Assembly (NCBI GenBank): GCA_964500725.1
Contig: CAZCNP010000001.1
Coordinates: forward strand, 321,520 to 385,519
Source of the DNA: an uncultured Gammaproteobacteria bacterium
GTDB taxonomy: Bacteria > Patescibacteriota > Microgenomatia > Daviesbacterales > UBA10151
Direction: 5' to 3'
DNA length: 64,000 nt
Part shown: positions 16,417 to 31,400 of the stretch, piece by piece
Numbering within the stretch: the first letter of the stretch is position 1
How the letters are laid out: each line of letters begins with the position of its first letter
Program-made: the position numbers and the translations under genes
Notes under the pieces: generated by a model
What the model saw: the letters and a program-made list of their open reading frames with translations, nothing else
Told to the model about the DNA's origin: nothing
Databases searched by the model: none

Positions 16417-19400
16417 ATGTTAAAAGTTAATTCGTCCAAAAAATCACTTGTTAAAATTGCCCAAGCCTCCAAGTTATTAGGCGTCCACAAAGATACTTTA
16501 AGAAGATGGGAAAAAGCTGGCAAAATTAAAGTAGTCCGAGACCAAAAAGGAGACAGGCTTTATGATGTTTCTAAACTAATTAACTCAGCTCCTGCTTCTC
16601 AAACCTCCAAGGTGCCTACAACTGAGCAGCTGTTAAAGTCAGCTTCCCAACACGCTCAACAATCCACCTTACAACCTCAGCTACCAGCTTTAGATTACTC
16701 TGCTTTGTTAGATCAAACTATATCAAAGGATAACAAGCAAACAGGCAGAAGGTTTTATTTTATGGCTGCAGGCTTCTTCCTGCTCTTAGTGCTGATAGGC
16801 TTAGGTTATATTAGAGTTTTATCTACTCAATCCAAACCACAAATAATTACTTCTTTGGAAAACAAGATACTGGCAGCTATCACCTCTCAACCTTTAGTTA
16901 AGATAAATGCTGATGTCAAAGTAAGAGGGTCATTATCTGTATCAAACGATATCAATGGGCTGGCGATTGCCACTGATTCAGCAGGCTTTACCTTAACTTC
17001 TGAAAATGGCAAATTAACTGTGGTTGGCGATGCCTTGTTAAACCAAGACTTATCTTCCAGCGGCTCCCCTACTTTTTCTTCTCTAAATTTATCCTCAACC
17101 AGCAATCAGCTAGTCTTTCAATCAGGCGGACCAGCAGGCACCTTAACCTGGACTCCAACTGCTGCAAGAACTATTACCCTGCCAGACACCACTACTACTT
17201 TAGTTGGAAAAGATACCACCGATACTTTTACTAACAAATCCATTTCTGGGTCTTCTAACACTTTTACCAATATCCCCAACTCTGCTCTAACAAATAAAAA
17301 AATAACTGTTACAGCTGGAACTAATTTAACCGGCGGAGGAGATGTAGAACTTGGTTCATCAATTACTTTGAGTTTAAAAGAATCCCCTACTTTCTCCGGT
17401 GTAGTCTTACTTTCTGATGGCACAGCTGCTGCCCCAGGCTTAGCTTTCAGCAATGATACTAATACAGGTTTATATAGAATTGGTACAGATAAAATTGCCC
17501 TGATCACAGGAGGATTAGCTACCTCAGGGATTACCATTGATTCTTCTGGCAATTTAGGAATAGCCAATAATTCTCCAGCATATAAATTAGATGTAACAGG
17601 CACTGCCAATATTACCAGCAATACTACTATTGGTGGAACTCTGGGAGTAACAGGTATCTCTACTTTTTCATCAACTATGGGGGTGTCGTCAGGATTATCT
17701 GTAGGTAGTACCTATTCTTCTCTGTCACCACCAACCAGCGGTGCCATTATAGAAGGAAATGTCGGTATCGGAACCAGCGCCCCTGGTTCTTTTGCGTTAA
17801 ATGTAAGCGGCAATACTTACCTTAACGGGAGGCTAGAAACTTCAGGTAATGTTGGTATAGCTAATTCTGCTCCATCTTTTACTTTGGATGTAGTAGGTAC
17901 TGGCAGATTTTCTTCTTTACTTAATGTCTTAGGTAATATAGGTATTGGTACCTCTGGTGCAGCAGGATCAGCCCTGCAGGTTAATGGTGGAGGATTATTT
18001 GGCTGGGGAACAACTTCTACTGCTTTATCTTCTGGAGCTATCTTAGGAGTTAATGGAAATGTAGGAGTTGGGACTACTTCCCCTCTGGCTAACCTGCATG
18101 TTGTTGGACAATGTGTTGTTGGGGAAACAAAACTTAAAAGAAGAAGGAGAAAGAAGGGCAAAAATGGTGAGTGGTCAGATGAATATGAAGATGTAGAGAT
18201 TAAGGATATCAAGGAAGGGGATGAGATACTAACACTTGATGAAAGTACCGGCAGATTTGTACCTGCTAAAGTTAACGCCCTCAAAGATATGGGGATCAAA
18301 GAAATCTTTGAGTTGACCACTGCTACCGGAAAAACCATCAGGACCACCGGCAACCATCCCTACCTGGCACTTGGCGTAGAACACCTAGCCCTCACTAGTC
18401 ATGATTCGGCATCAGGTGTTACCGGTGCTTCCTTGCTCAACTCTACCATTTTATCTCTCACAAGAGGGAACAAAGACCACCGGATCGCCGTCTTTATCGA
18501 TGCGGCAAACCTTGAAAAATCCGTTGAGAAAATAGGCTTCAAAGTCCACTATAAAAACCTTAAACGCCTAATTGCTTCTTTAGGTTCTCTTGACTATATT
18601 GGTTATTTTACAGTAGCTACTTCTTCAGAACAGAATGTGACTCTTCGCCAGTCTCTGCTGCGCTTTGGTTATAACGTGGTTACCAAACCTCTAAAACTTA
18701 TTAAAACCGCCAAAGGCCTGAAACCCAAGGCTGATGTTGATGTAGAGATTACCACCGAAGTAATGGAACGCAAAGATGACTTTGATCTGATGATTCTCTT
18801 TTCAGGAGACAGCGATTTTTACTATCCAATTAAGCTCTTACAAGAAAAGTATGGAAAGAAAGTAATAGTTATCTCTACCAGATACAGTGTCTCCAGGGAA
18901 CTACTCAAAGTTGCTGACCGTTACATTGATATTGCCAAGCTTAAAGGGGAAATTGCCAGAGGGCAAAAAGAAAGCCCGTCTTTTGCAACGGGCGACTCAT
19001 CTTTCGACGAGAGCAATCTTACGACTGCACTTCAAACTATATCAGATATCCTGCCTTTTGTCAAGAATTTGGGCAAATGGACTAAGGTGTCAGGGCTAAA
19101 GACCGGCCAGATGATAGCTGCAGTAGGGAAAGACAACCAACCTCAGTTTGAAAAAATTGCCTCTATTAAGAAGGTTAAACGCGAGCAGGTCTTTGATATA
19201 GAAGTAGAAGGCACCCATAACTTTGTAGGCAATGATATAGTAGCTCATAATACTTTTATTACAGGTAATGTTGGGATTGGGGCTGCTTTTACCACCTCAG
19301 GTATAGTTACCCCCACTAATGGTTTAGCTGTCCAGGGTAATGTAGGTATAGGAACTTCTACCACCAATGCTGCCTTAACAGTAATAGGTGGGATAACAAC

Positions 19401-22400
19401 TACTGGCAATGTTGGTATTTCAAACTCTGCCCCATCATTTACTTTGGATGTAGTAGGCACTGGCAGATTTTCTTCTGATCTAACTGTTTCTGGAACTACC
19501 TTCTCTGCCTCATCAGCTGCTGGATCATTTGATTCCTTAACAGTAGGAGGAGGTTATGGATCAACAGGAGTATCAATCTCCAATGCTGGAGTAATCCAGG
19601 CTAATGGAGCTTTAACTGCTGATGGACTGATTACTGGTTCAACAGGTTTAACTATTACTGGAGGTGTAGTTTCTTTGAATGCTTCCTCAAATAATGCTGT
19701 CAATATAAACACAGGATCATCTACAGGTGCTTTAACATTAGGAGGAGGATCTGGAACTGTGGAAGTGGCTTCCACCAGCTGGGATATTTCTACTTTAGGA
19801 GCTATCTCTGGTGTCACTGGTATTACTACCTCAGGAGGATATACCCAATCTGGTACTTCCGAGAACCTCTTTACTGGTAATGTGGGTATAGGAGTATCTG
19901 CTACAGGAGCTAAACTTTCTTTAAATGGCGGAGCATATATCTGGCCAATTACAACTAATATTGCTGCTCCTAATAACGGATTAGCTGTTTATGGTAGAGT
20001 GGGCATTGGTACTACCTCCCCCGCAACCAATCTCCACTTGATTGATACTTCTGGCAACACTGAGATAGCCAGGTTTACCTCCACGACCAACTCTAAGGAC
20101 TCCTATGTTCAGTTCAATACTACTTCTTCCACTTCTTCTATGGGATTGCAACTTTCTAGCACTGCTGCTAACTCAGTAGGTATGAGAATTGATGGCTCAG
20201 GAAACTTATCTTTCCATACAGGTGCAGCCAGCAGCTCAGTTATGGCTAATAATAATAAAAAGATGACTATTGATACCAATGGGAATGTGGGTATAGGCAG
20301 CAGTGCCAGCAATGGTATTAGCGCAATTCAACTTTTCCAGGTTAATGGAACCTCCTCCTCCCCATTTGTAGTTACTTCAGCTGGTAATGTTGGTATAGCT
20401 AATTCTGCCCCATCTTTTACTTTGGATGTAGTAGGTACTGGCAGGTTTTCTTCTTTACTGAATGTTTTAGGAAATGTGGGGATAGGAACATCAGGAGTAG
20501 CAGGATCAGCCCTGCAGGTTAATGGTGGAGGATTATTTGGCTGGGGAACAACTTCTACTGCTTTATCTTCTGGAGCTATCTTAGGAGTTAATGGAAATGT
20601 AGGAGTTGGGACTACTTCCCCTCTGGCTAACCTGCATGTTGTTGGACAATGTGTTGTTGGGGAAACAAAACTGAAAAGAAGAAGGAGGAAAAAAGGCAAA
20701 AATGGCAAGTGGATTGATGAATGGGAAGAGGTGGAAATCAAGGATATTAAAGAAGGCGATGAGATACTTTCCTTAAACGAGAGTACTGGTGAGTTTATTC
20801 CCAGAAAAGTTAAGGGGCTTTTGGGTATGGGAATGCAGGAGGTGTATGAAATCTTAACCGAAGAAGGTAAAACCATCCAAACCACCAAAAACCATCCTTA
20901 CCTGGTAGACCTCTCTGAAACAGCAGGTACAGCGCTTCATTTTATTCAAAAAGCCACTTTTGAATATAGCGAGAGATTAGGAAAAGAGTTTTATATTGAT
21001 CATCTTGCAGGCAAGAAAATAAAATCAAAAGCATTAAATGACACTATCAACTTTACTCATACAGGCTGGAACCACTTTACAGAAAAAAGCAGATCAATCA
21101 ATGAATTGATTACCAGATTTTTTGCTCTTCCCTATGCTATTACAGTTCTATCTCAAGCCAGCAAAGTAAAAATTCATGAGGAAAGAAAGAAACCAGATAT
21201 GGTAGTGGAATACTGGATTTTTGAAGAAATTATCGAGTATGCGTTAATCCGGGTAGTAATTTCTGCTGTGAATCATGGCCCTAAGTTTTTCTTGTCTTGT
21301 TCCTGGCTGGGGACACAGGCAGAAGGAGGAATTTTAGCCAACAAAAAAGAGCTGTCTCTCTCGCAGGCAGTTACTCCTGGTCGACGTCGGGAACTGGTTA
21401 TCCCTCAGCTCTTTACTAAGCTGTTTATACCAAAAAATGTCAAAAATGTCAAGTGGGTTGAGGTTAGAAACTTAACAGTTGGGGCTAGTATCGCCACTAT
21501 TTCAGGTTGGGAAAAGATAGTTTCCATCAAAAATATGGGTAGAAAATCTACTTTTGATATAGAGGTAGCAGGGACTCATAATTTTCTAGGCAATAATATA
21601 GTTGCCCATAATACTTTCATTACAGGTAATGTTGGTATAGGAGCTGCTTTTACCACCTCAGGTATAGTTACCCCTGCTGATGGTTTAGCAGTCCAGGGCA
21701 ATGTAGGTATAGGGACAACTACTACCAATGCTGCTTTAACAGTGATAGGAGGAATAACCAGTACTGGTAATGTGGGTATTGCTAACTCTGCTCCATCATA
21801 TACTTTGGATGTAATAGGTACTGGCAGATTCTCTTCTACTCTGCTAGCTAATACCTTCTCCTCCTCAGAGGTAACCATCACTGGTGGAACCATCAATAAC
21901 ACCAGTATTGGAGCAACTGTAACCTCAACTGGCGCTTTTACTACTCTTTCTGCCTCTGGAGCTTTGGCTGCCAATGGTGGGATTACCTTTGATAATGCTA
22001 CTGATACATTAGGAGCTTTTACTGCTGCTGGAACTATCAATATGAATGGCAATATTATTACCAATATAGGGGCAACAGATACCAGCTTTGCCACCACTGG
22101 AGCCTTAGCCATTACCTTAGATGGAGCTGATGCCAGTGGCGCTCTCTCTGTTTCCAATGCCTCTCAAACCTCAGATATCTTTGTGGCCAAAGATAACACT
22201 ACTGCTGTGTTTACCATTAAAGATGGAGGCAATGTTGGGATAGGCTTTACCTCTCCTTCAGCTTTGCTTCATCTCAGACAAACAGGATCAGGTAATGCTT
22301 TCTATGTAGAAGATCAGGCAGATGATACTTCTTCTCCTTTTGTGATCAATGCTGATGGTAATGTTGGTATAGCTAACTCTGCTCCATCATATACCTTGGA

Positions 22401-25400
22401 TGTAGTAGGAACTGGAAGAATATCTTCTGATCTGGTAGTAAATGGCACTACTTTCTCTGCCTCATCAGCTGCTGGATCATTTGATTCCTTAACAGTAGGA
22501 GGAGGTTATGGATCAACAGGAGTATCAATCTCCAATGCTGGAGTAATCCAGGCTAATGGAGCTTTAACTGCTGATGGACTGATTACTGGTTCAACAGGTT
22601 TAACTATTACTGGAGGTGTAGTTTCTTTGAATGCTTCCTCAAATAATGCTGTCAATATAAACACAGGATCATCTACAGGTGCTTTAACATTAGGAGGAGG
22701 ATCTGGAACTGTGGAAGTGGCTTCCACCAGCTGGGATATTTCTACTTTAGGAGCTATCTCTGGTGTCACTGGTATTACTACCTCAGGAGGATATACCCAA
22801 TCTGGTACTTCCGAGAACCTCTTTACTGGTAATGTGGGTATAGGAGTATCTGCTACAGGAGCTAAACTAGCCATTAATGGTGGAGCATATATCTGGCCTA
22901 CTACCACAGCTATCTCTGCTCCCAATGATGGGCTGGCTGTATATGGTAATGTTGGTATAGGAACTACTACACCTTTAGCTAACTTACATGTTGTAGGACA
23001 ATGTGTAACTGGAGATACCAGACTGAGAAGAAGGAAGAAAAAGAAGAATGGTGAGTGGTCAGATGAATATGAAGATATAGAGATTAAAGATATCCAAGCA
23101 GGAGACCAGATACTGTCCTTAAATGAAAAGACAGGGCAATTTGAACCTCACACTGTTCTCGCCCTAAAAGATATGGGAATCCACCAAACTTTTGAGTTGA
23201 TTACTGCCTCCAGGAAATCAATCAGAACAACAGCTAATCATCCATACCTTATTAAACAACAAAAAACCCGCCTTTCAGCGAGTTCTTTGACTGAGTTTAA
23301 TGCTGATGCACTATACTCGGGTCTGAGTATCAATACTCTACCACAAAATACCAATAATGTCAAGTCTATGACTGCACGAAGTGGAACTAATGTGGACCTG
23401 ACGGGAATTGAACCCGCAAACCCAGATTTCTCAGACCCGAGCGTACACCAGTACCAGGCCCACATAAAATTATTATCTCATAAATGGATTAAAGTTTCAG
23501 GGCTTAAACCAGGCATGGAAATAGCTACTATTAATGGATGGGAAAAAATAGCAGCTATTAAAAAATTTGCCAGAGAACAGGTTTTTGATATAGAAGTTGA
23601 AGGAACACATAACTTTGTAGGCAATGATATAGTTGCCCATAATACTTTTATTACAGGTAATGTTGGGATTGGGGCTGCTTTTACCACCTCAGGTATAGTT
23701 ACCCCCACTAATGGATTAGCAGTCCAGGGTAATGTTGGTATTGGGACAACTACTACTACTAATGCCTTAACTGTTGCAGGTAATGTTAATACTACTGGTA
23801 ATTTAGGAGTTGGAACATCAGCTACAGGAGGATATAACTTAACAGTACAGGGTACTACCAGTATTACTGGAGCTGCCACTTTTGGATCTACTGGTACCTT
23901 TGCCTCTACCTTAACAGCTTCCAATGGCTTAACTTTAACAACTGGAGCTTTAAATCTAACCTCTACCTCAGGACAGGCTAATCTAGCTCTAACCAATAAC
24001 ACCAACACCTTCACTGTTAATGGATTATTTGGGATAGACACTACCAATAACAGAGTTGGTATTGGAACCACTGCCCCCTCTGCAGCAAGGCTTGAAGTTA
24101 TTGGAGCAGGATCCGTGACAGGACGCACCTTCTGGGTTACTGGATCAAATCTTTCCTCAGGCCTGGCAGTACTGGATAATGGTAACGTGGGTATTGGTAT
24201 TAGTGGACCAACTGCCAGTTTGGATATTGTGGGAACCTCATATACTACTGCCTTAGATCAATCTCAAACAAGTACTAATGGATTTTATAGCTCCAGTATA
24301 CAAGCGCAATCTTTCACCCCTTCTGTTACCGGCCCTTTCATGTATGCTGATATAAAAATCCAATCAGGAGGAGGAGCTCCAGGCAATACCGCTCTTACCC
24401 TCCGCTCAGGAGAAGATGTTTCAGGTACAGTTTTGGCTACTTCAACCAGTGTTGCCAGTTTAGGCAGTGGTTGGTATCGGATTACTTTTGACAATACCCC
24501 TACTTTAACTGCCGGACAGCAATACACCATCCGCTATGATAGAACAAGTACAAACGACTGGGGAATACAAGGTGCTAATCCCTATTCTGGAGGAAGATTC
24601 TATGGCTTAGGAGCTTGGAAAACCGATGATGGTGCCTTTAAAACTTATGTCTATACAACAGATACTACACTGGCAGATGCAGTTAAAATGGCTAATAATT
24701 ACACCTCGGCAAACAGCGGGGCTGTTTTAAACATTACCACAGCTGGAATAGCTGGAAGCTATGCCTTAAGAGTTAACGATGACGGTACATTTACCGATAC
24801 CTCCCCCTTTGTTATTGATACTACTGGTAATGTTGGTATAGCTAACTCTGCTCCATCATATACCTTGGATGTAGTAGGAACTGGAAGAATATCTTCTGAT
24901 CTGGTAGTAAATGGCACTACTTTCTCTGCCTCATCAGCTGCTGGATCATTTGATTCCTTAACAGTAGGAGGAGGTTATGGATCAACAGGAGTATCAATCT
25001 CCAATGCTGGAGTAATCCAGGCTAATGGAGCTTTAACTGCTGATGGACTGATTACTGGTTCAACAGGTTTAACTATTACTGGAGGTGTAGTTTCTTTGAA
25101 TGCTTCCTCAAATAATGCTGTCAATATAAACACAGGATCATCTACAGGTGCTTTAACATTAGGAGGAGGATCTGGAACTGTGGAAGTGGCTTCCACCAGC
25201 TGGGATATTTCTACTTTAGGAGCTATCTCTGGTGTGACTACTTTGAATATGTCAGGCGCCATCACTGCTGCTACTGCCTCCAATACCATCAATGGTTTAA
25301 TTATTAACTCTGGAGCATTATCTGGTGTCACTGGTATTACTACCTCAGGAGGATATACCCAATCTGGTACTTCCGAGAACCTCTTTACTGGTAATGTGGG

Positions 25401-28400
25401 TATAGGAGTATCTGCTACAGGAGCTAAACTTTCTTTAAATGGCGGAGCATATATCTGGCCAATTACAACTAATATTGCTGCTCCTGATAATGGCTTGGCT
25501 GTATATGGCAATGTGGGTATTGGTACTACTACTACCAATGCTGCTTTAACAGTGATAGGAGGAATAACCAGTACTGGTAATGTGGGTATTGCTAACTCTG
25601 CTCCATCATATACTTTGGATGTAATAGGTACTGGCAGATTCTCTTCTACTCTGCTAGCTAATACCTTCTCATCATCAGATGTAACAATCACAGGAGGAAC
25701 TATTAATGACACTACTATTGGAGCAACTATTACCTCAACTGGAGCTTTTACCACTTTAACTTCATCAGGTAATACCACCTTGGGTACAGGAGCATCATCT
25801 GTCAATACCATTGGTTCAACCACTACTCCAGGAACTCTAACCCTGCATGGAGCCACTACTTTGGACAATACCTTCACTGTTTCAGGAGCCAATCTCACTT
25901 CTTTGGGTGGGAACTTATCTTTTACTGGCACTGCTCCATCTTTAACTTCTGGATCATCAGTACTAGGAATATTTGCTGGAGGTAATGTAGGAATTGGGAC
26001 TACTTCTGCCATGGCCTCCTCTTTTAATGTTAATGGCAATCAGGTTATTGGTTCATCTTTCATTGGAGGTGCTGCCCCCACTAATGGATTAGCAGTCCAG
26101 GGTAATGTTGGTATTGGGACAACTACTACTACTAATGCCTTAACTGTTGCAGGTAATGTTAATACTACTGGTAATTTAGGAGTTGGAACATCAGCTACAG
26201 GAGGATATAACTTAACAGTACAGGGTACTACCAGTATTACTGGAGCTGCCACTTTTGGATCTACTGGTACCTTTGCCTCTACCTTAACAGCTTCCAATGG
26301 CTTAACTTTAACAACTGGAGCTTTAAATCTAACCTCTACCTCAGGACAGGCTAATCTAGCTCTAACCAATAACACCAACACCTTCACTGTTAATGGATTA
26401 TTTGGGATAGACACTACCAATAACAGAGTTGGTATTGGAACCACTGCCCCCTCTGCAGCAAGGCTTGAAGTTATTGGAGCAGGATCCGTGACAGGACGCA
26501 CCTTCTGGGTTACTGGATCAAATCTTTCCTCAGGCCTGGCAGTACTGGATAATGGTAACGTGGGTATTGGTATTAGTGGACCAACTGCCAGTTTGGATAT
26601 TGTGGGAACCTCATATACTACTGCCTTAGATCAATCTCAAACAAGTACTAATGGATTTTATAGCTCCAGTATACAAGCGCAATCTTTCACCCCTTCTGTT
26701 ACCGGCCCTTTCATGTATGCTGATATAAAAATCCAATCAGGAGGAGGAGCTCCAGGCAATACCGCTCTTACCCTCCGCTCAGGAGAAGATGTTTCAGGTA
26801 CAGTTTTGGCTACTTCAACCAGTGTTGCCAGTTTAGGCAGTGGTTGGTATCGGATTACTTTTGACAATACCCCTACTTTAACTGCCGGACAGCAATACAC
26901 CATCCGCTATGATAGAACAAGTACAAACGACTGGGGAATACAAGGTGCTAATCCCTATTCTGGAGGAAGATTCTATGGCTTAGGAGCTTGGAAAACCGAT
27001 GATGGTGCCTTTAAAACTTATGTCTATACAACAGATACTACACTGGCAGATGCAGTTAAAATGGCTAATAATTACACCTCGGCAAACAGCGGGGCTGTTT
27101 TAAACATTACCACAGCTGGAATAGCTGGAAGCTATGCCTTAAGAGTTAACGATGACGGTACATTTACCGATACCTCCCCCTTTGTTATTGATACTACTGG
27201 TAATGTTGGTATAGCTAACTCTGCTCCATCATATACCTTGGATGTAGTAGGAACTGGAAGAATATCTTCTAATCTAACAATAGGTGGATCATTAACTTCT
27301 ACTGGTAACCTACTTCCTTCAGCTGATGATACTTATGATTTAGGTTCTTCTTCTGCCAGATGGCAAGATCTCTATGTTGGCCCCACATCCTTAAATCTAG
27401 TTTGTACTGCAGGAGAATGTGGTACAGCCAGAACTTGGAATATTGGTGTTCAGGAATCTTCTGGAGTAGCAGCTGCCCAAGGTAATTTAAGGATTGGGCT
27501 TTCTTCCAGTAGAGACTTTCTCAATATTAACACCTCTGGAAATTTAGGAATTGGGACCAGTAATCCAGGAAACCTTTTGACTGTTTCAGGAGGCAATATT
27601 GAAATTTCCAGCGCTTCTCCACAGTTGATTTGGACAGACACCACAGCTGGTCAGGATGCTTTTGGAGCTATAGCCAACAGCGATTACTTAGAATTTATGT
27701 CCGGAGGCACCAGAAATATTTTAGTCTTGGCTGGTGCAACCCACGCAAATGCAGGTAATGTGGGGATTGGAACAGCAACTCCTGCCTTTAAACTGGATGT
27801 TAATGGTGGCATCAATTCAGGTACATCTGCTGGATATTCTGTTGGATCGTGGCTTGGTATGTCTTATGCAGCAAATGGAGCAAGTTATAACTTAAACTTA
27901 GGTGGTATTAATGCCTCTACCTGGGTGGGACTAGGTCTTTTCACTTCTGGCACAGAAAAGGTCAGAATCGATACAAATGGCGCACTATATTCAGGCAATA
28001 TTGGTACCTCTATTGCTAATGCTAATTTATTTGTCTCAGGGGCTACCTCTGGAAATGTTGGTATCGGCACTACAACTCCAAATACCAGACTGGATGTTAT
28101 AGGTAATGGGACTTATGCTGCTGATTTCATGAATGGAAGTGTGGGAATTGGAACTAGCAGCCCTCAAGCTACCCTTCATGTAGCTTCTGCCTTTACTGCA
28201 GTTTCAGATACTGGCAGCACTGGTGGTAACTTAATTATTCAAGGAACTGATACTACCAGGGATCCAACTCATGGGGCTGCTTTAAGCTTCTATCTTCCAG
28301 CTACTACAGCAGGAGGAAATCCTTATGTTCAAGCCAGAATTATAGGAGCACCAGATAATAGTTCTAATAATAATACTTCTGGAAGATTAATTTTCCAGAC

Positions 28401-31400
28401 TAGAAATAATACCAGCGCCTCTTTCAATAATGCCATGATGATAGATTCAAATGGAAATGTTGGCATTGGCACAACTGGGCCTAATGCTAAACTGGATGTG
28501 ATTGGTGGAATCAGGGTTACTAATACGAGCAGCACCAATGCTCTTGTGTTTGGTCTTGCAAATAGCAATCATTACCTCAAGCTCTACGCAGATACAGACA
28601 CTGGTATCAGCTACATTAAGAACTTATCTAACTATGATATTAGACTGGGACATGCAAGCAGTGATGATGTAATAATCAACTCTGCTGGTAATGTAGGTAT
28701 AGCAAACTCTGCTCCAAGTTATACCCTGGATGTTATAGGTACAGGCAGATTCTCTTCTGACCTTACTGTTGGAGGAAACTTAACTGTCTCTGGCACTACT
28801 TTTTCTGCCTCAGGAGCTGCAGGATCTTTTGATTCTTTAACAGTTGGTGGAGGTTATGGATCAACTGGAGTAACTATTTCCAATGCTGGGGTAATCCAAG
28901 CCAATGGGACTTTAACTGTTGATTCTACCTCTACTTTAACAGGAGCTGTCAGTATTGGAGCTTCCAATGCTGCTTTAACATTTACTGGTACTACTCCATC
29001 AATCACTTCTGGTTCCTCTGTCTTTGGAATCTTTGCTGGGGGGAATGTGGGAATAGGGACCACCTCTACCATGGGGTCAACTTTGAATGTTTCAGGTAAT
29101 CAGGTTATTGGTTCATCTTTCATTGGTGGAGCTGCTCCACAAAATGGATTAGGGATTCAGGGTAATGTTGGTATAGGCACTACTACTGCTACCTCTTATA
29201 ATCTTCAAGTTGTAGGGACTATTGGTTCAACCAGTGGTATTACTATAGATGCTGGAGCAGGCAGCTCTAATGCAACTCTTACTCTCGCAGGAAGAAATTC
29301 TGGGACAGCCCATTCTGCTTCTGTTTTCTCCAATTTTAACGGAGGCCTTAATCTAAAACCAGCCACAACTGGCAGTGATATTAATGTCTATCTTTGGAAT
29401 AATGCCACAGCTTCTACCTCCAATACCATGCCTTTAAACTTTGATTTAAATGCTACCACAGATGGTAAAACTACTTTTGCTCAAATCATGGGTCTTTCTA
29501 CTGATATTACCTCGGGAGCTGCCTCTGGAGCTTTATCTTTCTACACCAAAAATACTGGATCCTTGAAGGAAAGAATGAGGATAGATCTAAACGGTAACGT
29601 TGGTATTGGTACTTCTGCTCCATTTACTGCATTAACAGGAGCCTTCCAAGTAGCACCAGTTTCTGCCCCTGCTGCTTTCTTTGTAGGAAGTACAGGTAAT
29701 GTTGGGATAGGGACTACTGCCCCTACTAACAACTTATCAGTTATAGGCAATGTTAATACCACTGGTAATTTGGGAGTAGGGACATCTGCCACAGGTGGAT
29801 ATAACCTAACAGTAAATGGAACTGCTAGAATCTCAGGAAATATAGGTATAGGTGGTACTGCTACCTTCAGTAATCCAACTATCTTTAACAATGGTATTAC
29901 CAATAATGGAGTCTTTTCTCAGACAGGACAATTCCTAGCAGGAGATGGATCAGCTGCAGCTCCTTCGTATTCCTTCACCAGTTCCACTGGAGCAGGCCTC
30001 TGGTCACCATCTTCTAACAATATTGCCCTAACTACTGGAACTCCTACTACAACTGGTACCATTAAAGGAATCTCTGTTGATTCCTCTGGTAATGTAGGAA
30101 TTGGGACTTCTAATCCAGCAGGGCTTTTGGACATTGTTAAATTAGGAAATGATAACCCAATCTATATAGATCGATATAGTACAAACAATGGCCATGTTCC
30201 CACAATCCAATTCCGCACCAGCCAACAAAACAGTCTAGGCAACACTGCCACCACTATTAGCAACATGTATGGAAGACTTGAATGGTATGGGAATGATGGT
30301 AACGGCTTCCAAAGGGCTGCCTATATTCAAGCACAGCAGGGTTCAAGTACTGCAACTGATGCTGACTTAACAATATCTACAGGTGCAAGCGGAACAATTT
30401 TCATGGAAGGGAGTTCTGGCAATGTTGGTATTAACAATGCTGCTCCTGTGGCTAAATTACATTTAACAGGAGCTGGGATTACCACTGGAGTTAACTTCCT
30501 CTCCACAGGAGCTGGTGGAGGTGGAGGTCTAGTAGGTATTTTAGATAATGGCAATGTTGGAATAGGGACAACTGCACCAGGACAGAAACTGGATGTGGTT
30601 GGTACTATTAAATTTGGTTCCGGGGGTTATTACTCTTTGGGCACAGATCCTACCCGACTGGAAATAAGAAATGCCGCCAACGATTCCATCGCTCTTTATA
30701 CGAACGGTACGCGCGGCTTACTTATGACTGGGTCTCAAAAAGTCACAGTTGGAGGAGATATTTCTGGTGGTAATAGTTTATTCAATGTTCAAGGTGGTAC
30801 AGCAATTGGGTCAAGTTATTACCTGGCGACAGCTCCTACCAACGGCCTATTAGTTGAAGGTAATGTTGGTATTGGTACCACCAGCCCGATCACTAAATTA
30901 GATGTTAGCGGTGGAGTTGGAGACACTTCATCTACTGATCCTCAATTCTCTCTTTCCAGATGGTCTTCAACTGGTAATAACGAAGTAGTCAAATTTAGAT
31001 TAATGGAGCAAGCTTCAGGTGGCACTAACTTTGGGGTATTTACCATCCAAACCAAGAGTACAGCCTCTGCAGCAGAAAGCGATAGTTACTACACTAATGC
31101 TTTCTCAATCACTGCAGCTGGAAATGTTGGTATTGGTACCACTGGACCAGCTGTTAAGCTTGATGTTGTTGGTGGAGGAAACTATGTTGACGGTTTGAGA
31201 TTAAGATATTCTGCCTTAACTAACGGATGGAACTTTGCTCAGGGGACTGGCGGACAACTTTATTTTGGTTATGGCTCTGCTGCTTCACCAACAACCATGA
31301 TGCTGATAGATACCAATGGCAATGTTGGTATTAATAATGCTGCTCCTGTGGCTAAACTTCATTTAACTGGAGCAGGAACAACTACTGGGGTTAATTTCCT

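What the first reader, a model, noticed from the sequence alone, without database searches (positions are those of the whole stretch)
20905..21500. Intein 2 carries an unclassifiable ~200-aa insert
The region VDLSETAG...PDMVVEYWIFEEIIEYALIRVV...GRRRELVIPQLF lies between canonical N- and C-terminal splicing blocks and matches no endonuclease family I recognise. The D-x-EY-x-x-EE pattern could be a degenerate PD-(D/E)xK site. It may be a novel homing nuclease or a DNA-binding module.
Basis: inference. Interest (0 to 1): 0.55.

Follow-up and report, generated by a model that had tools for sequence, protein, structure and literature searches.

The report
Intein carrying protein-plus-RNA-like cassette
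The odd insert inside this self-splicing protein element is not a known cutting enzyme: it combines a folded domain of unknown function (LPD3 family) with a conserved, folded stretch of nucleic acid translated as floppy linker, and the same pair occurs as a free gene and inside ordinary enzymes in related bacteria.

Summary
Intein 2 (nt 20650-21612, 321 aa, Cys1...His-Asn|Thr) of a 5,984-aa Candidatus Daviesbacteria protein carries about 180 aa between its splicing halves, and this matches no homing-endonuclease family. It is classifiable, and it has two parts.

- **Domain (nt 20905-21342).** A confidently folded alpha/beta domain (pLDDT 93-95) of the Pfam LPD3 family, whose function is unknown. 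The window copy scores 25.6 bits against a threshold of 27. Homologs about 55% identical pass the threshold, and the best structural matches are phage LPD3 proteins.
- **Tail (nt 21343-21417, 'KKELSLS...RRRELVIPQLF').** This is conserved as nucleotides, not as protein. It forms a three-way junction with compensatory changes in 12 of 17 pairs. It lies untranslated after the stop codon of free-standing homologs, is read in two different frames in two subfamilies, and is predicted to be disordered as protein. It has no Rfam match.

The ORF-plus-element cassette occurs free-standing, nested in inteins of giant proteins, and in frame in RpiB and LeuRS with no Hint domain. All named genome loci are from candidate-phyla-radiation bacteria.

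The PD-(D/E)xK idea is not supported. I infer that this is a self-contained, probably mobile, cassette occupying the endonuclease slot. Its biochemistry (nuclease or RNA-binding) is untested.

The parts
16417..34371 (+). Host gene: 5,984-aa giant repeat protein (GNVGIGT-type repeats) carrying three paralogous inteins at equivalent sites (…VVGQ|C … HN|TFITGNVGIG).
   Evidence: The organism is Candidatus Daviesbacteria, from exact matches of neighbouring proteins.
20650..21612 (+). Intein 2 (321 aa): class-1-type, Cys1, block B TxxH ('TTKNH'), C-terminal His-Asn, +1 Thr.
   Evidence: Pfam Intein_splicing E=6.7e-16 and TIGR01445/01443. PDB DnaB inteins match by sequence and by fold.
20650..20904 (+). 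N-terminal splicing half (intein residues 1-85).
20905..21342 (+). LPD3-family alpha/beta domain (intein residues 86-231). Topology: long helix, beta-hairpin, two helices, four-strand antiparallel meander. Family-invariant residues (insert numbering): Y30, W55, H57, R71, L75, W104, S131, G136. Near-invariant: R63, E102, W134.
   Evidence: Pfam LPD3 25.6 bits; homologs P0002 36.9 and P0046 29.3 bits, above GA 27. AF2 pLDDT >90. Top BFVD hits are LPD3 proteins. Conservation.
21343..21417 (+). Conserved three-way-junction nucleic-acid element, translated here as 'KKELSLSQAVTPGRRRELVIPQLFT'.
- P1: 21347-21354 pairs with 21406-21413.
- P2: 21361-21367 pairs with 21376-21379 and 21382-21384, with a GU bulge at 21380-21381.
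- P3: 21389-21392 pairs with 21401-21404.
   Evidence: Covariance model R1 gives 90.4 bits, E=2e-21. Covariation. Untranslated copies after stop codons. Read in two frames. Identical-codon fraction 0.97 against 0.41 in the domain. pLDDT <40 as protein. No Rfam match.
21418..21447 (+). Short low-confidence linker ('KLFIPKNVKN') between the element and the C-terminal splicing half.
   Evidence: pLDDT is below 50 up to intein residue 263.
21448..21612 (+). C-terminal splicing half (blocks F and G, 'FDIEVAGTHNFLGNNIVAHN').

Best explanation
**Shown.** The insert of intein 2 is a two-part cassette sitting where inteins normally carry a homing endonuclease.
- Part 1 is a folded domain of about 145 aa from the LPD3 family (PF18798), whose function is unknown.
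- Part 2, directly 3' of it, is a 65-100-nt element that folds as a three-way junction. It is selected at the nucleotide level. In this intein it is simply translated through as a disordered linker.
- The same ORF-plus-element unit exists in related candidate-phyla-radiation bacteria in three settings: as a free-standing gene with the element in its 3' untranslated region; nested in inteins of other giant proteins; and inserted in frame into ribose-5-phosphate isomerase B and a leucyl-tRNA synthetase with no intein around it.

**Inferred.**
- The cassette is a self-contained, horizontally moving selfish unit that has colonised the permissive endonuclease loop of this intein family.
- The LPD3-like domain acts on nucleic acid. 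It is moderately basic and has an invariant His, two conserved Arg (R71 invariant, R63 near-invariant), a near-invariant Glu, and invariant Ser and Tyr.
- The adjacent structured element is its cis partner, either a binding or processing site on the sense transcript or its DNA equivalent. The pair, rather than a classical homing DNase, would then provide whatever mobility or maintenance function the intein has.
For: **Family and fold**
- Pfam LPD3 scores E=1.5e-5 for the window copy.
- The 55-57%-identical homolog P0002 and the more distant P0046 (42% identical) pass the gathering threshold. Precomputed PF18798 hits are on record for four homologs.
- The AF2 model has mean pLDDT 82.6, with the core above 90.
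- The best BFVD matches are annotated LPD3 proteins (probability 0.97-1.0, TM 0.41-0.53).

**Protein under selection**
- About 30 homologs share invariant residues.
- Synonymous sites are saturated: only 41% of codons are identical at identical residues.

**Nucleotide-level element**
- The block AAAGAGCTGTCTCTC...GACGTCGGGAAC...TCCCTCAGCTCTT is near-identical across loci.
- It lies right after the stop codon of stand-alone genes in L003, L005, L007, L019 and L021.
- An ORF-deleted syntenic locus, L022, keeps it.
- It is read as KELSL in type 1 and KRAVS in type 2, from the same bases.
- 97% of codons are identical in the tail, and this is the only nucleotide-constrained stretch of the ORF.
- RNAalifold finds 9 of 15 pairs with compensatory changes.
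- On 20 copies, 93.5% of cells are paired and 12 of 17 pairs show double changes, against 4.6±1.2 in shuffles (0 of 500 reach the observed value) and 1-5 for slid controls.
- Five G·U cells favour the sense strand.
- The translated element is disordered in both AF2 models.

**Contexts**
- Intein-nested: L008-L011, L016, L017, P0020, P0030-32 and others.
- RpiB: three proteins, two genome loci and a further metagenome contig, inside a pentose-phosphate operon, with no Hint domain.
- LeuRS: P0121.
- Stand-alone genes sit in three unrelated neighbourhoods.
- L016 carries a type-1 and a type-2 cassette in two inteins of one gene.

**Slot**
- The Hint halves superpose on mini-inteins with the cassette looping out.
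- Sibling inteins in the same gene carry an NYN domain or only a linker.
Against: - No activity is known for LPD3 (PMC5512222).
- The window copy itself is below Pfam's threshold.
- Mobility is inferred from patchy distribution and varied contexts. I found no cassette-plus versus cassette-minus allele pair at an intein site, and no target site.
- Whether the element acts as RNA or as DNA is not settled, because compensatory changes fit both.
- The 20-copy alignment was fitted to the model. The sequences are related (effective number 2.67), so cell counts overstate independent events.
- A physical link between protein and element rests only on their constant adjacency and co-divergence.
- The LeuRS case is a single protein with no DNA examined.
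Confidence: 0.55

Rival explanations
1. The LPD3-like domain is simply a new family of intein homing DNase that cuts intein-less alleles. The 3' element is a hitch-hiking piece of the ancestral gene's 3' UTR (for example a stabiliser or terminator-like structure) with no role inside the intein.
For: - It occupies the canonical endonuclease slot.
- Three paralogous inteins sit at equivalent sites of the repeat gene.
- The ORF shows a selfish-gene style loss in L022.
- The domain is basic, with conserved His, Arg and Glu.
Against: - The element keeps its pairing through compensatory changes within translated, intein-nested and RpiB copies: L011, L008, L015 and type 2. It is therefore still under selection there.
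- There is no fold or motif match to any DNase.
- No empty target allele was identified.
Confidence: 0.2
2. The domain is a metal-independent RNase of the barnase/RelE-like (BECR) kind and the structured RNA is its inhibitor or substrate. This would be a toxin-RNA addiction pair analogous to type III toxin-antitoxin systems, stabilising whatever gene it sits in.
For: - The topology is helices followed by a four-strand antiparallel sheet.
- The conserved His, Arg, Glu, Ser and Tyr set (most invariant; R63 and E102 near-invariant) resembles microbial RNase active sites (own knowledge).
- LPD3 co-occurs with predicted PBECR RNase domains in Helicobacter prophage polyvalent proteins (PMC5512222).
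- The sibling intein carries an NYN (PIN-like RNase) domain.
- ORF and RNA are always adjacent.
Against: - There is no Foldseek match to barnase, RelE, colicin or EndoU structures.
- PADLOC and PHROGs give no toxin hit.
- The RNA is a single copy 3' of the ORF, not the upstream repeat array of known type III systems (own knowledge).
- An ORF-less locus keeps the RNA.
Confidence: 0.15
3. The conserved tail works as double- or single-stranded DNA, not RNA. It could be a recombination or cleavage site, or a cruciform that marks the 3' boundary of the cassette and is used when it moves.
For: - It lies exactly at the 3' end of the cassette in every context.
- It contains palindromes (GTCGAC, GACGTC) and an outer inverted repeat.
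- Base-pair covariation is equally compatible with folded ssDNA.
Against: - Five G·U (G·T) cells, in two pair columns, would be A·C mismatches on the other strand.
- No matching 5' end element was found: upstream regions are unrelated, and no other nucleotide-constrained stretch exists in the ORF.
- The protein has no recombinase or HUH motifs.
Confidence: 0.15
4. The insert is an inert passenger: a decayed or domesticated domain retained only as a spacer that lets the intein fold, with no present function of its own.
For: - Intein 3 of the same gene manages with an unrelated 128-aa linker.
- The window copy scores lowest against LPD3 and has some substitutions (for example PYA in place of PRV).
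Against: - All family-invariant residues are intact in the window copy.
- The fold is predicted with pLDDT 93-95.
- Amino-acid conservation persists despite saturated synonymous change.
- The element scores highest of all copies against the model, at 90.4 bits.
Confidence: 0.07
5. One reading: a degenerate PD-(D/E)xK nuclease using D-x-EY-x-x-EE.
For: An acidic cluster is present in the window sequence. E102 is near-invariant and E111 is usually acidic.
Against: - D98, E107 and E108 are not conserved.
- There is no (D/E)xK on one strand.
- The topology lacks the helix between strands 3 and 4 of that fold.
- No PD-(D/E)xK hit appears in Pfam, the PDB or Foldseek.
Confidence: 0.03

Closest known systems
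LPD3 (Pfam PF18798, 'large polyvalent protein-associated domain 3') of phage and conjugative-element polyvalent proteins (Iyer et al. 2017, PMC5512222)
   Same: Sequence-profile similarity: 25.6 bits for the window copy and 29-37 bits for close homologs. The predicted fold is the same, with top BFVD matches at probability about 1. Like LPD3, it also occurs as 'solo' small proteins.
   Different: - Found here in CPR bacterial chromosomes, not in polyvalent proteins.
- No relatives in IMG/VR or GenBank phages at the sensitivity used.
- Nested in inteins or enzymes.
- Always followed by a conserved structured nucleic-acid element, which has not been described for LPD3.
- The function of LPD3 is itself unknown.
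Intein-encoded homing endonucleases (LAGLIDADG type such as PI-SceI and PI-PfuI; HNH type)
   Same: A foreign domain inserted between splicing blocks B and F of a Hint fold. Sibling inteins occupy equivalent sites. ORF loss elsewhere (L022) resembles the gain-decay-loss cycle of homing genes.
   Different: No LAGLIDADG or HNH motifs or fold. No demonstrated DNA target. The cassette includes a nucleotide-level structured element and also lives outside inteins.
TnpB/IscB with their omega/reRNA (IS200/IS605 elements)
   Same: A protein ORF whose 3' end is followed or overlapped by a conserved structured RNA at the element's 3' boundary. ORF and RNA travel together. This is an analogy only.
   Different: No sequence or fold relation. 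The protein is only about 135 aa, with no RuvC or HNH. No guide segment, transposon ends or TnpA were seen. No Rfam match.
Type III toxin-antitoxin pairs (ToxIN-like: endoRNase plus structured RNA)
   Same: A small basic protein with a putative RNase-like residue set is genetically coupled to a structured RNA.
   Different: The RNA is a single three-way junction 3' of the ORF rather than an upstream tandem repeat. There is no PADLOC hit. Toxicity is unknown.
NYN-domain intein (intein 1 of the same gene; P0017 'NYN domain-containing protein, Patescibacteria')
   Same: Same intein family, same slot, and another non-canonical nucleic-acid-enzyme domain in place of a classical homing endonuclease.
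   Different: The fold is different (PIN-like). The covariance model found no copy of the three-way-junction element there.

Membership tests
Class-1 intein (Hint fold, protein splicing) | N-terminal Cys/Ser, block B TxxH, C-terminal His-Asn, and +1 Cys/Ser/Thr | tested here: met
   C1 is present, block B reads 'TTKNH', and the end reads 'VAHN|T'. Pfam Intein_splicing E=6.7e-16; TIGR01445/01443 also match.
Class-1 intein (Hint fold, protein splicing) | N and C halves together form a Hint fold | tested here: met
   The AF2 model matches the NpuDnaB and SspDnaB mini-inteins at E 1e-7 to 1e-6, TM (by target) up to 0.82. Splicing activity itself is not testable here.
LPD3 (PF18798) | Profile-HMM score at or above Pfam's gathering threshold (27 bits) | tested here: inconclusive
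   The window copy scores 25.6 bits, E=1.5e-5. Homologs P0002 (36.9 bits) and P0046 (29.3 bits) pass, while P0012 at 26.8 bits does not. Precomputed PF18798 hits are on record for P0002, P0003, P0004 and P0012.
LPD3 (PF18798) | Same fold as annotated LPD3 proteins | tested here: met
   The top three BFVD matches comprise two proteins annotated LPD3 and one unannotated phage protein: probability 0.97-1.0, E 0.012-0.019, TM 0.41-0.53, rmsd 3.9 Å over 126 columns for A0A8S5QNP1. The E-values are modest.
LPD3 (PF18798) | Occurrence in polyvalent proteins of phages or conjugative elements | tested here: not met
   The hosts are CPR chromosomal genes. There is no match in IMG/VR or GenBank phages.
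LAGLIDADG / HNH / GIY-YIG homing endonucleases | Family motif and profile match | tested here: not met
   No hit in Pfam, NCBIfam, PHROGs or PADLOC at E≤1, nor in PDB sequences at E≤10. No such structure appears among the Foldseek PDB hits.
PD-(D/E)xK nucleases | Conserved D…(D/E)xK on adjacent strands of an alpha-beta-beta-beta-alpha-beta core | tested here: not met
   The proposed D98, E107 and E108 are variable and there is no conserved ExK. The topology differs. No fold match was found.
BECR-type RNases (barnase/EndoU/colicin E5-D/RelE) | Helix or helices plus a four-strand antiparallel sheet with a basic/His/Glu active site; structural match to members | tested here: inconclusive
Any Rfam RNA family | Covariance-model match | tested here: not met
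   Nothing was found at the element with E≤1 over 6 kb. With E≤10 on 111-121-nt slices, only chance miRNA hits at E 7-10 appeared.
Structured nucleic-acid element (generic criteria) | Conservation independent of coding, plus compensatory base-pair changes | tested here: met
   It is untranslated in some loci, translated in others, and read in two frames. 12 of 17 pairs show double changes, 0 of 500 shuffles reach this, and slid controls give 1-5. Codon identity is 0.97 against 0.41.

The most novel reading that the evidence does not exclude
The LPD3-like ORF and its 3' three-way-junction RNA form a previously unrecognised class of selfish ORF-RNA cassette in CPR bacteria. It would spread by inserting in frame into permissive loops of proteins: intein endonuclease slots, RpiB and LeuRS. 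It would persist by being translated through, without needing any splicing. The RNA would be the protein's obligate partner, as a recognition, processing or guide-like component. If so, inteins of these giant proteins are only one of several landing pads, and LPD3 would gain its first functional assignment.
Probability: 0.3. Interest if true: 0.9.

Novelty: new variant of a known kind. Interest (0 to 1): 0.74.

Why it matters
- **Inteins.** They are thought to carry LAGLIDADG or HNH homing endonucleases or nothing. Here one gene shows three paralogous inteins with three different cargoes: an NYN domain, the LPD3-like cassette, and a linker with an antisense tRNA-like sequence. That suggests the endonuclease slot is a general landing site in CPR bacteria.
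- **The cassette.** It couples a protein of an uncharacterised phage-associated family (LPD3) to a conserved structured nucleic-acid element that survives being translated in two reading frames. This is an unusually clean case of nucleotide-level selection inside coding sequence, and a concrete handle for assigning a function to LPD3.
- **Housekeeping genes.** Its in-frame presence in RpiB and LeuRS without any splicing domain raises the question of how selfish insertions persist in the essential genes of reduced genomes.
- **Annotation.** The element is a candidate new RNA family, and gene-based annotation will always miss it.

Tried and rejected
- **Library scans of the insert.** Pfam, NCBIfam, PHROGs and PADLOC gave only the sub-threshold LPD3 hit.
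- **PDB sequence searches.** The single-sequence search found only intein halves. The profile search found only RpiB segments, because the alignment carried host flanks.
- **Representative-library profile search.** It was polluted by the extein repeats in one alignment row. I rescued it by re-scoring its 150 hits locally with a domain-only HMM.
- **tRNA-like, ribozyme or Rfam identity for the tail.** ARAGORN and Rfam were negative. Single-sequence folding of the tail is not significant on its own (z about -1.3 to -1.4); the structure is supported only comparatively.
- **A conserved 5' end element, or any other nucleotide-constrained region of the ORF.** None was found.
- **Phage carriage of the cassette.** None was found in IMG/VR or GenBank phages.
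- **Metagenome DNA-pattern scan.** It returned 8 loci, of which 2 (L020, L024) are GC-rich chance matches lacking the outer stem.
- **Literature.** I found no paper on inteins with NYN or LPD3 cargo, or on inteins of CPR giant proteins. The papers that appeared to mention LPD3 in fact refer to LPD38, LPD39 or LPD36.
- **P0011 (SurA_N + domain).** I judged it a chimeric assembly, because it ends in the junk peptide GRASCRERV, and set it aside.
Full report
**1. The observation**

The window's ORF at 16417-34371 (+) encodes a 5,984-aa repeat protein. Exact matches of neighbouring proteins place the window in a Candidatus Daviesbacteria (candidate phyla radiation, CPR) genome.

The protein carries three inteins at equivalent sites (…VVGQ|C…HN|TFITGNVGIG):

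| Intein | Coordinates | Length |
|---|---|---|
| I1 | 18112-19251 | 380 aa |
| I2 | 20650-21612 | 321 aa |
| I3 | 23002-23643 | 214 aa |

The peptide quoted in the finding is encoded at 20905-21414 (170 aa), inside I2. I2 has Cys1, block B 'TTKNH', C-terminal His-Asn and +1 Thr. It matches Pfam Intein_splicing (E=6.7e-16), the TIGR N- and C-terminal intein models, and DnaB intein structures by sequence.

An AF2 model of the whole intein has mean pLDDT 80.4. Its two Hint halves superpose on DnaB mini-inteins (4o1r, E=1.2e-7, TM 0.82 by target), and the insert loops out where mini-inteins have their short linker. The finding's end coordinate (21500) runs into the C-terminal splicing half.

**2. 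The folded part**

The insert is not unclassifiable. Pfam gives LPD3 (PF18798) at E=1.5e-5 and 25.6 bits, just under the 27-bit threshold.

Database searches found homologs about 50-57% identical. Several of them carry precomputed PF18798 hits. When scanned directly, P0002 scores 36.9 bits and P0046 29.3 bits, both above threshold.

AF2 on a 17-sequence alignment gives a confident model with the core above pLDDT 90. Its topology is a long helix, a beta-hairpin, two helices and a four-strand antiparallel meander.

Foldseek finds nothing significant in the PDB; the best E-value is 0.15. In the viral structure library, two of the top three hits are annotated LPD3 proteins (the third is unannotated), with probability 0.97-1.0.

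LPD3 was defined by Iyer et al. 2017 as one of 40 'LPD' domains of phage and plasmid polyvalent proteins 'whose precise functions remain elusive' (PMC5512222). I found no later functional work.

In a 23-member alignment, the invariant residues (insert numbering) are Y30, W55, H57, R71, L75, W104, S131 and G136. R63, E102 and W134 are nearly invariant.

D98, E107 and E108 vary, there is no ExK, and neither the topology nor any search supports that fold.

**3. The tail is a nucleic-acid element**

Inserted copies share a C-terminal tail ('KELSLS…RRRELVIPQL') that the 133-137-aa stand-alone proteins lack. Looking at the DNA changed the picture.

- The tail's nucleotides are almost identical across loci, including synonymous positions.
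- The same sequence lies untranslated, immediately after the stop codon, in the stand-alone genes in L003, L005, L007, L019 and L021.
- L022 is syntenic with L007 and has lost the ORF by an internal deletion, yet it keeps the element.
- In a second protein subfamily the tail reads 'KRAVSRLYPRCRG..TPQL'. This is the same stretch, AAAAGAGCUGUCUC, read one base out of frame. The frame rejoins before '…CCUCAGCUCUUU' (PQLF).
- At residues identical between copies, 41% of codons are identical in the domain but 97% in the tail blocks. A sliding scan shows that the tail is the only nucleotide-constrained stretch of the ORF.

The element folds as a three-way junction:

- **P1** has 8 bp and closes the element.
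- **P2** is a hairpin of variable length.
- **P3** has 4 bp and a loop that tolerates insertions.

RNAalifold finds compensatory changes in 9 of 15 pairs.

I built a covariance model, R1. It recovers 20 copies at E values from 1e-10 to 1e-21, including type-2 copies it was not trained on. Across these copies:

- 93.5% of cells are paired.
- 12 of 17 pairs show changes on both sides, against 4.6±1.2 in shuffles (0 of 500 reach the observed value) and 1-5 in the slid controls.

Examples of compensation:

| Helix | Variants seen |
|---|---|
| P1 | GAGCUG/CAGCUC, CAGCUG/CAGCUG, GGGCUG/CAGCCC, GAGCUC/GAGCUC, GAAGCUG/CAGCUUC |
| P3 | GGGA/UCCC, GGGG/CCCC, GACG/CGUC, GAGG/CCUC |

Five G·U cells mildly favour the sense strand. 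Rfam has no match. As protein, exactly this stretch (intein residues 232-263, nt 21343-21438) is predicted to be disordered.

Caveats: the copies are related (effective number 2.67), and the 20-copy alignment was fitted to the model. Compensatory changes cannot distinguish RNA from folded ssDNA.

**4. Where the cassette occurs**

| Setting | Examples |
|---|---|
| Free-standing gene, in three unrelated neighbourhoods | L003, L005, L007 |
| Nested in inteins of giant repeat proteins, and of one SecA-containing protein | many loci; L016 has a type-1 and a type-2 cassette in two inteins of one gene |
| In frame in RpiB of Saccharibacteria, within a pentose-phosphate operon | three proteins |
| In frame in a LeuRS, between its Zn-knuckle Cys and the conserved 'VPVPEDQLP' | P0121 |

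Neither the RpiB nor the LeuRS copies have any Hint domain.

The 9 species-genome loci are titled as CPR lineages or, for three, as uncultured Gammaproteobacteria MAGs; of those three, the two with intact open frames encode the same intein-bearing giant proteins. None was found in IMG/VR or GenBank phages.

**5. Interpretation**

*Shown.* Intein 2's insert is an LPD3-family domain plus a conserved structured element. Together they form a unit that also exists outside inteins.

*Inferred.* The unit is a selfish, horizontally moving cassette that has landed in the endonuclease slot. Its protein acts on nucleic acid, and the element is its cis partner.

The supporting logic is as follows. ORF and element are always adjacent and co-diverge into two types. 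Selection on pairing continues in translated copies. The distribution is patchy across many contexts. ORF loss occurs while the element is retained. The protein is basic (pI 8-9.5) and has a His/Arg/Glu/Ser/Tyr conserved set.

Several things cannot be decided here:

- whether the protein is a DNase (homing), an RNase (toxin-like, BECR-type) or a binder;
- whether the element acts as RNA or as DNA;
- how RpiB and LeuRS tolerate the insert.

The sibling inteins show that this slot accepts varied cargo. I1 carries an NYN domain (E=1.2e-23). I3 has only a linker, which contains an antisense tRNA-like cloverleaf. The three inteins are 57-72% identical in their N-terminal halves. The exteins upstream of I1 and I2 are 90% identical at the DNA level.

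**6. Comparison and novelty**

The insert is a divergent member of, or sister clade to, LPD3. It fails LPD3's typical context of polyvalent proteins in phages. It is not a member of any homing-endonuclease family.

The ORF-plus-3'-RNA arrangement is reminiscent of TnpB/IscB with their omega RNAs, or of type III toxin-antitoxin pairs. That resemblance is analogy only.

I found no literature on LPD3 or NYN cargo in inteins, or on this element.

I rate it a new variant of a known kind: an intein with non-canonical cargo. There is a real chance (about 0.3) that the cargo is a new class of ORF-RNA mobile cassette.

Noticed in passing
window 18112-19251 (intein 1); NYN domain about 18481-18933: The first intein of the same gene nests an NYN (PIN-like nuclease) domain in the endonuclease slot: Pfam PF01936 E=1.2e-23, PADLOC 'LabA-like NYN' E=5.8e-15. 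A Patescibacteria homolog (P0017) has the same architecture. I know of no description of NYN as intein cargo.
   Followed up: partly
window 23393-23461, minus strand (inside intein 3, 23002-23643): The linker of the third intein contains an antisense tRNA-like cloverleaf. It scores 27.8 bits on the Rfam tRNA model against a gathering score of 29, and folds at -35.4 kcal/mol (z=-4.7). Its anticodon loop is CUGAGAA. ARAGORN does not call it. On the coding strand it is translated as '…TGIEPANPDFSDP…'.
   Followed up: partly
L001/L014 (about 6200-6730 of L001) and L015; proteins P0013-P0015: Saccharibacteria RpiB genes, within a pentose-phosphate operon, carry the whole cassette in frame between profile positions about 58 and 59. 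There is no intein. The insert may be retained in the enzyme or removed by an unknown route.
   Followed up: partly
protein P0121 (residues about 480-690): A leucyl-tRNA synthetase carries a type-2 cassette inserted between 'CEHC' and 'GWFPVPEDQLP', with no Hint domain. Its tail looks partly degenerate because it lacks 'TPQL'. This is a single sequence and no DNA was available.
   Followed up: no
L022 3862-3927 (also L018, L023), compared with L007 5001-5478: This syntenic locus has lost the LPD3-like ORF by an internal deletion, leaving 'ATGTTTTAGAAAC'. The three-way-junction element is retained intact.
   Followed up: yes
L016 1730-1794 and 3409-3498: One giant gene holds two inteins, one with a type-2 cassette and one with a type-1 cassette. 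Each has its own version of the element, read in a different frame.
   Followed up: yes
L001 9248-9787: A 179-aa ORF with no Pfam match sits between the N- and C-terminal transketolase half-genes in the same Saccharibacteria operon. Pfam found no domain in it; it was not compared with the cassette domain HMM.
   Followed up: partly
window 17800-18111 compared with 20350-20649, and the intein flanks generally: The 300 nt of extein upstream of inteins 1 and 2 are 90% identical, whereas the inteins themselves are about 71% identical at the DNA level. The repeats of the giant gene are being homogenised, or duplicated, independently of their inteins.
   Followed up: partly
protein P0021 (3,223 aa): An intein with a type-1 cassette lies at the N-terminal end of a protein that also contains complete SecA domains. 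The intein family is therefore not confined to the GNVGIGT-repeat proteins.
   Followed up: no
protein P0011: An apparent SurA_N-LPD3 fusion ends in 'GRASCRERV', a recurrent junk peptide of misassembled reads. It is probably a chimeric contig and was ignored.
   Followed up: no
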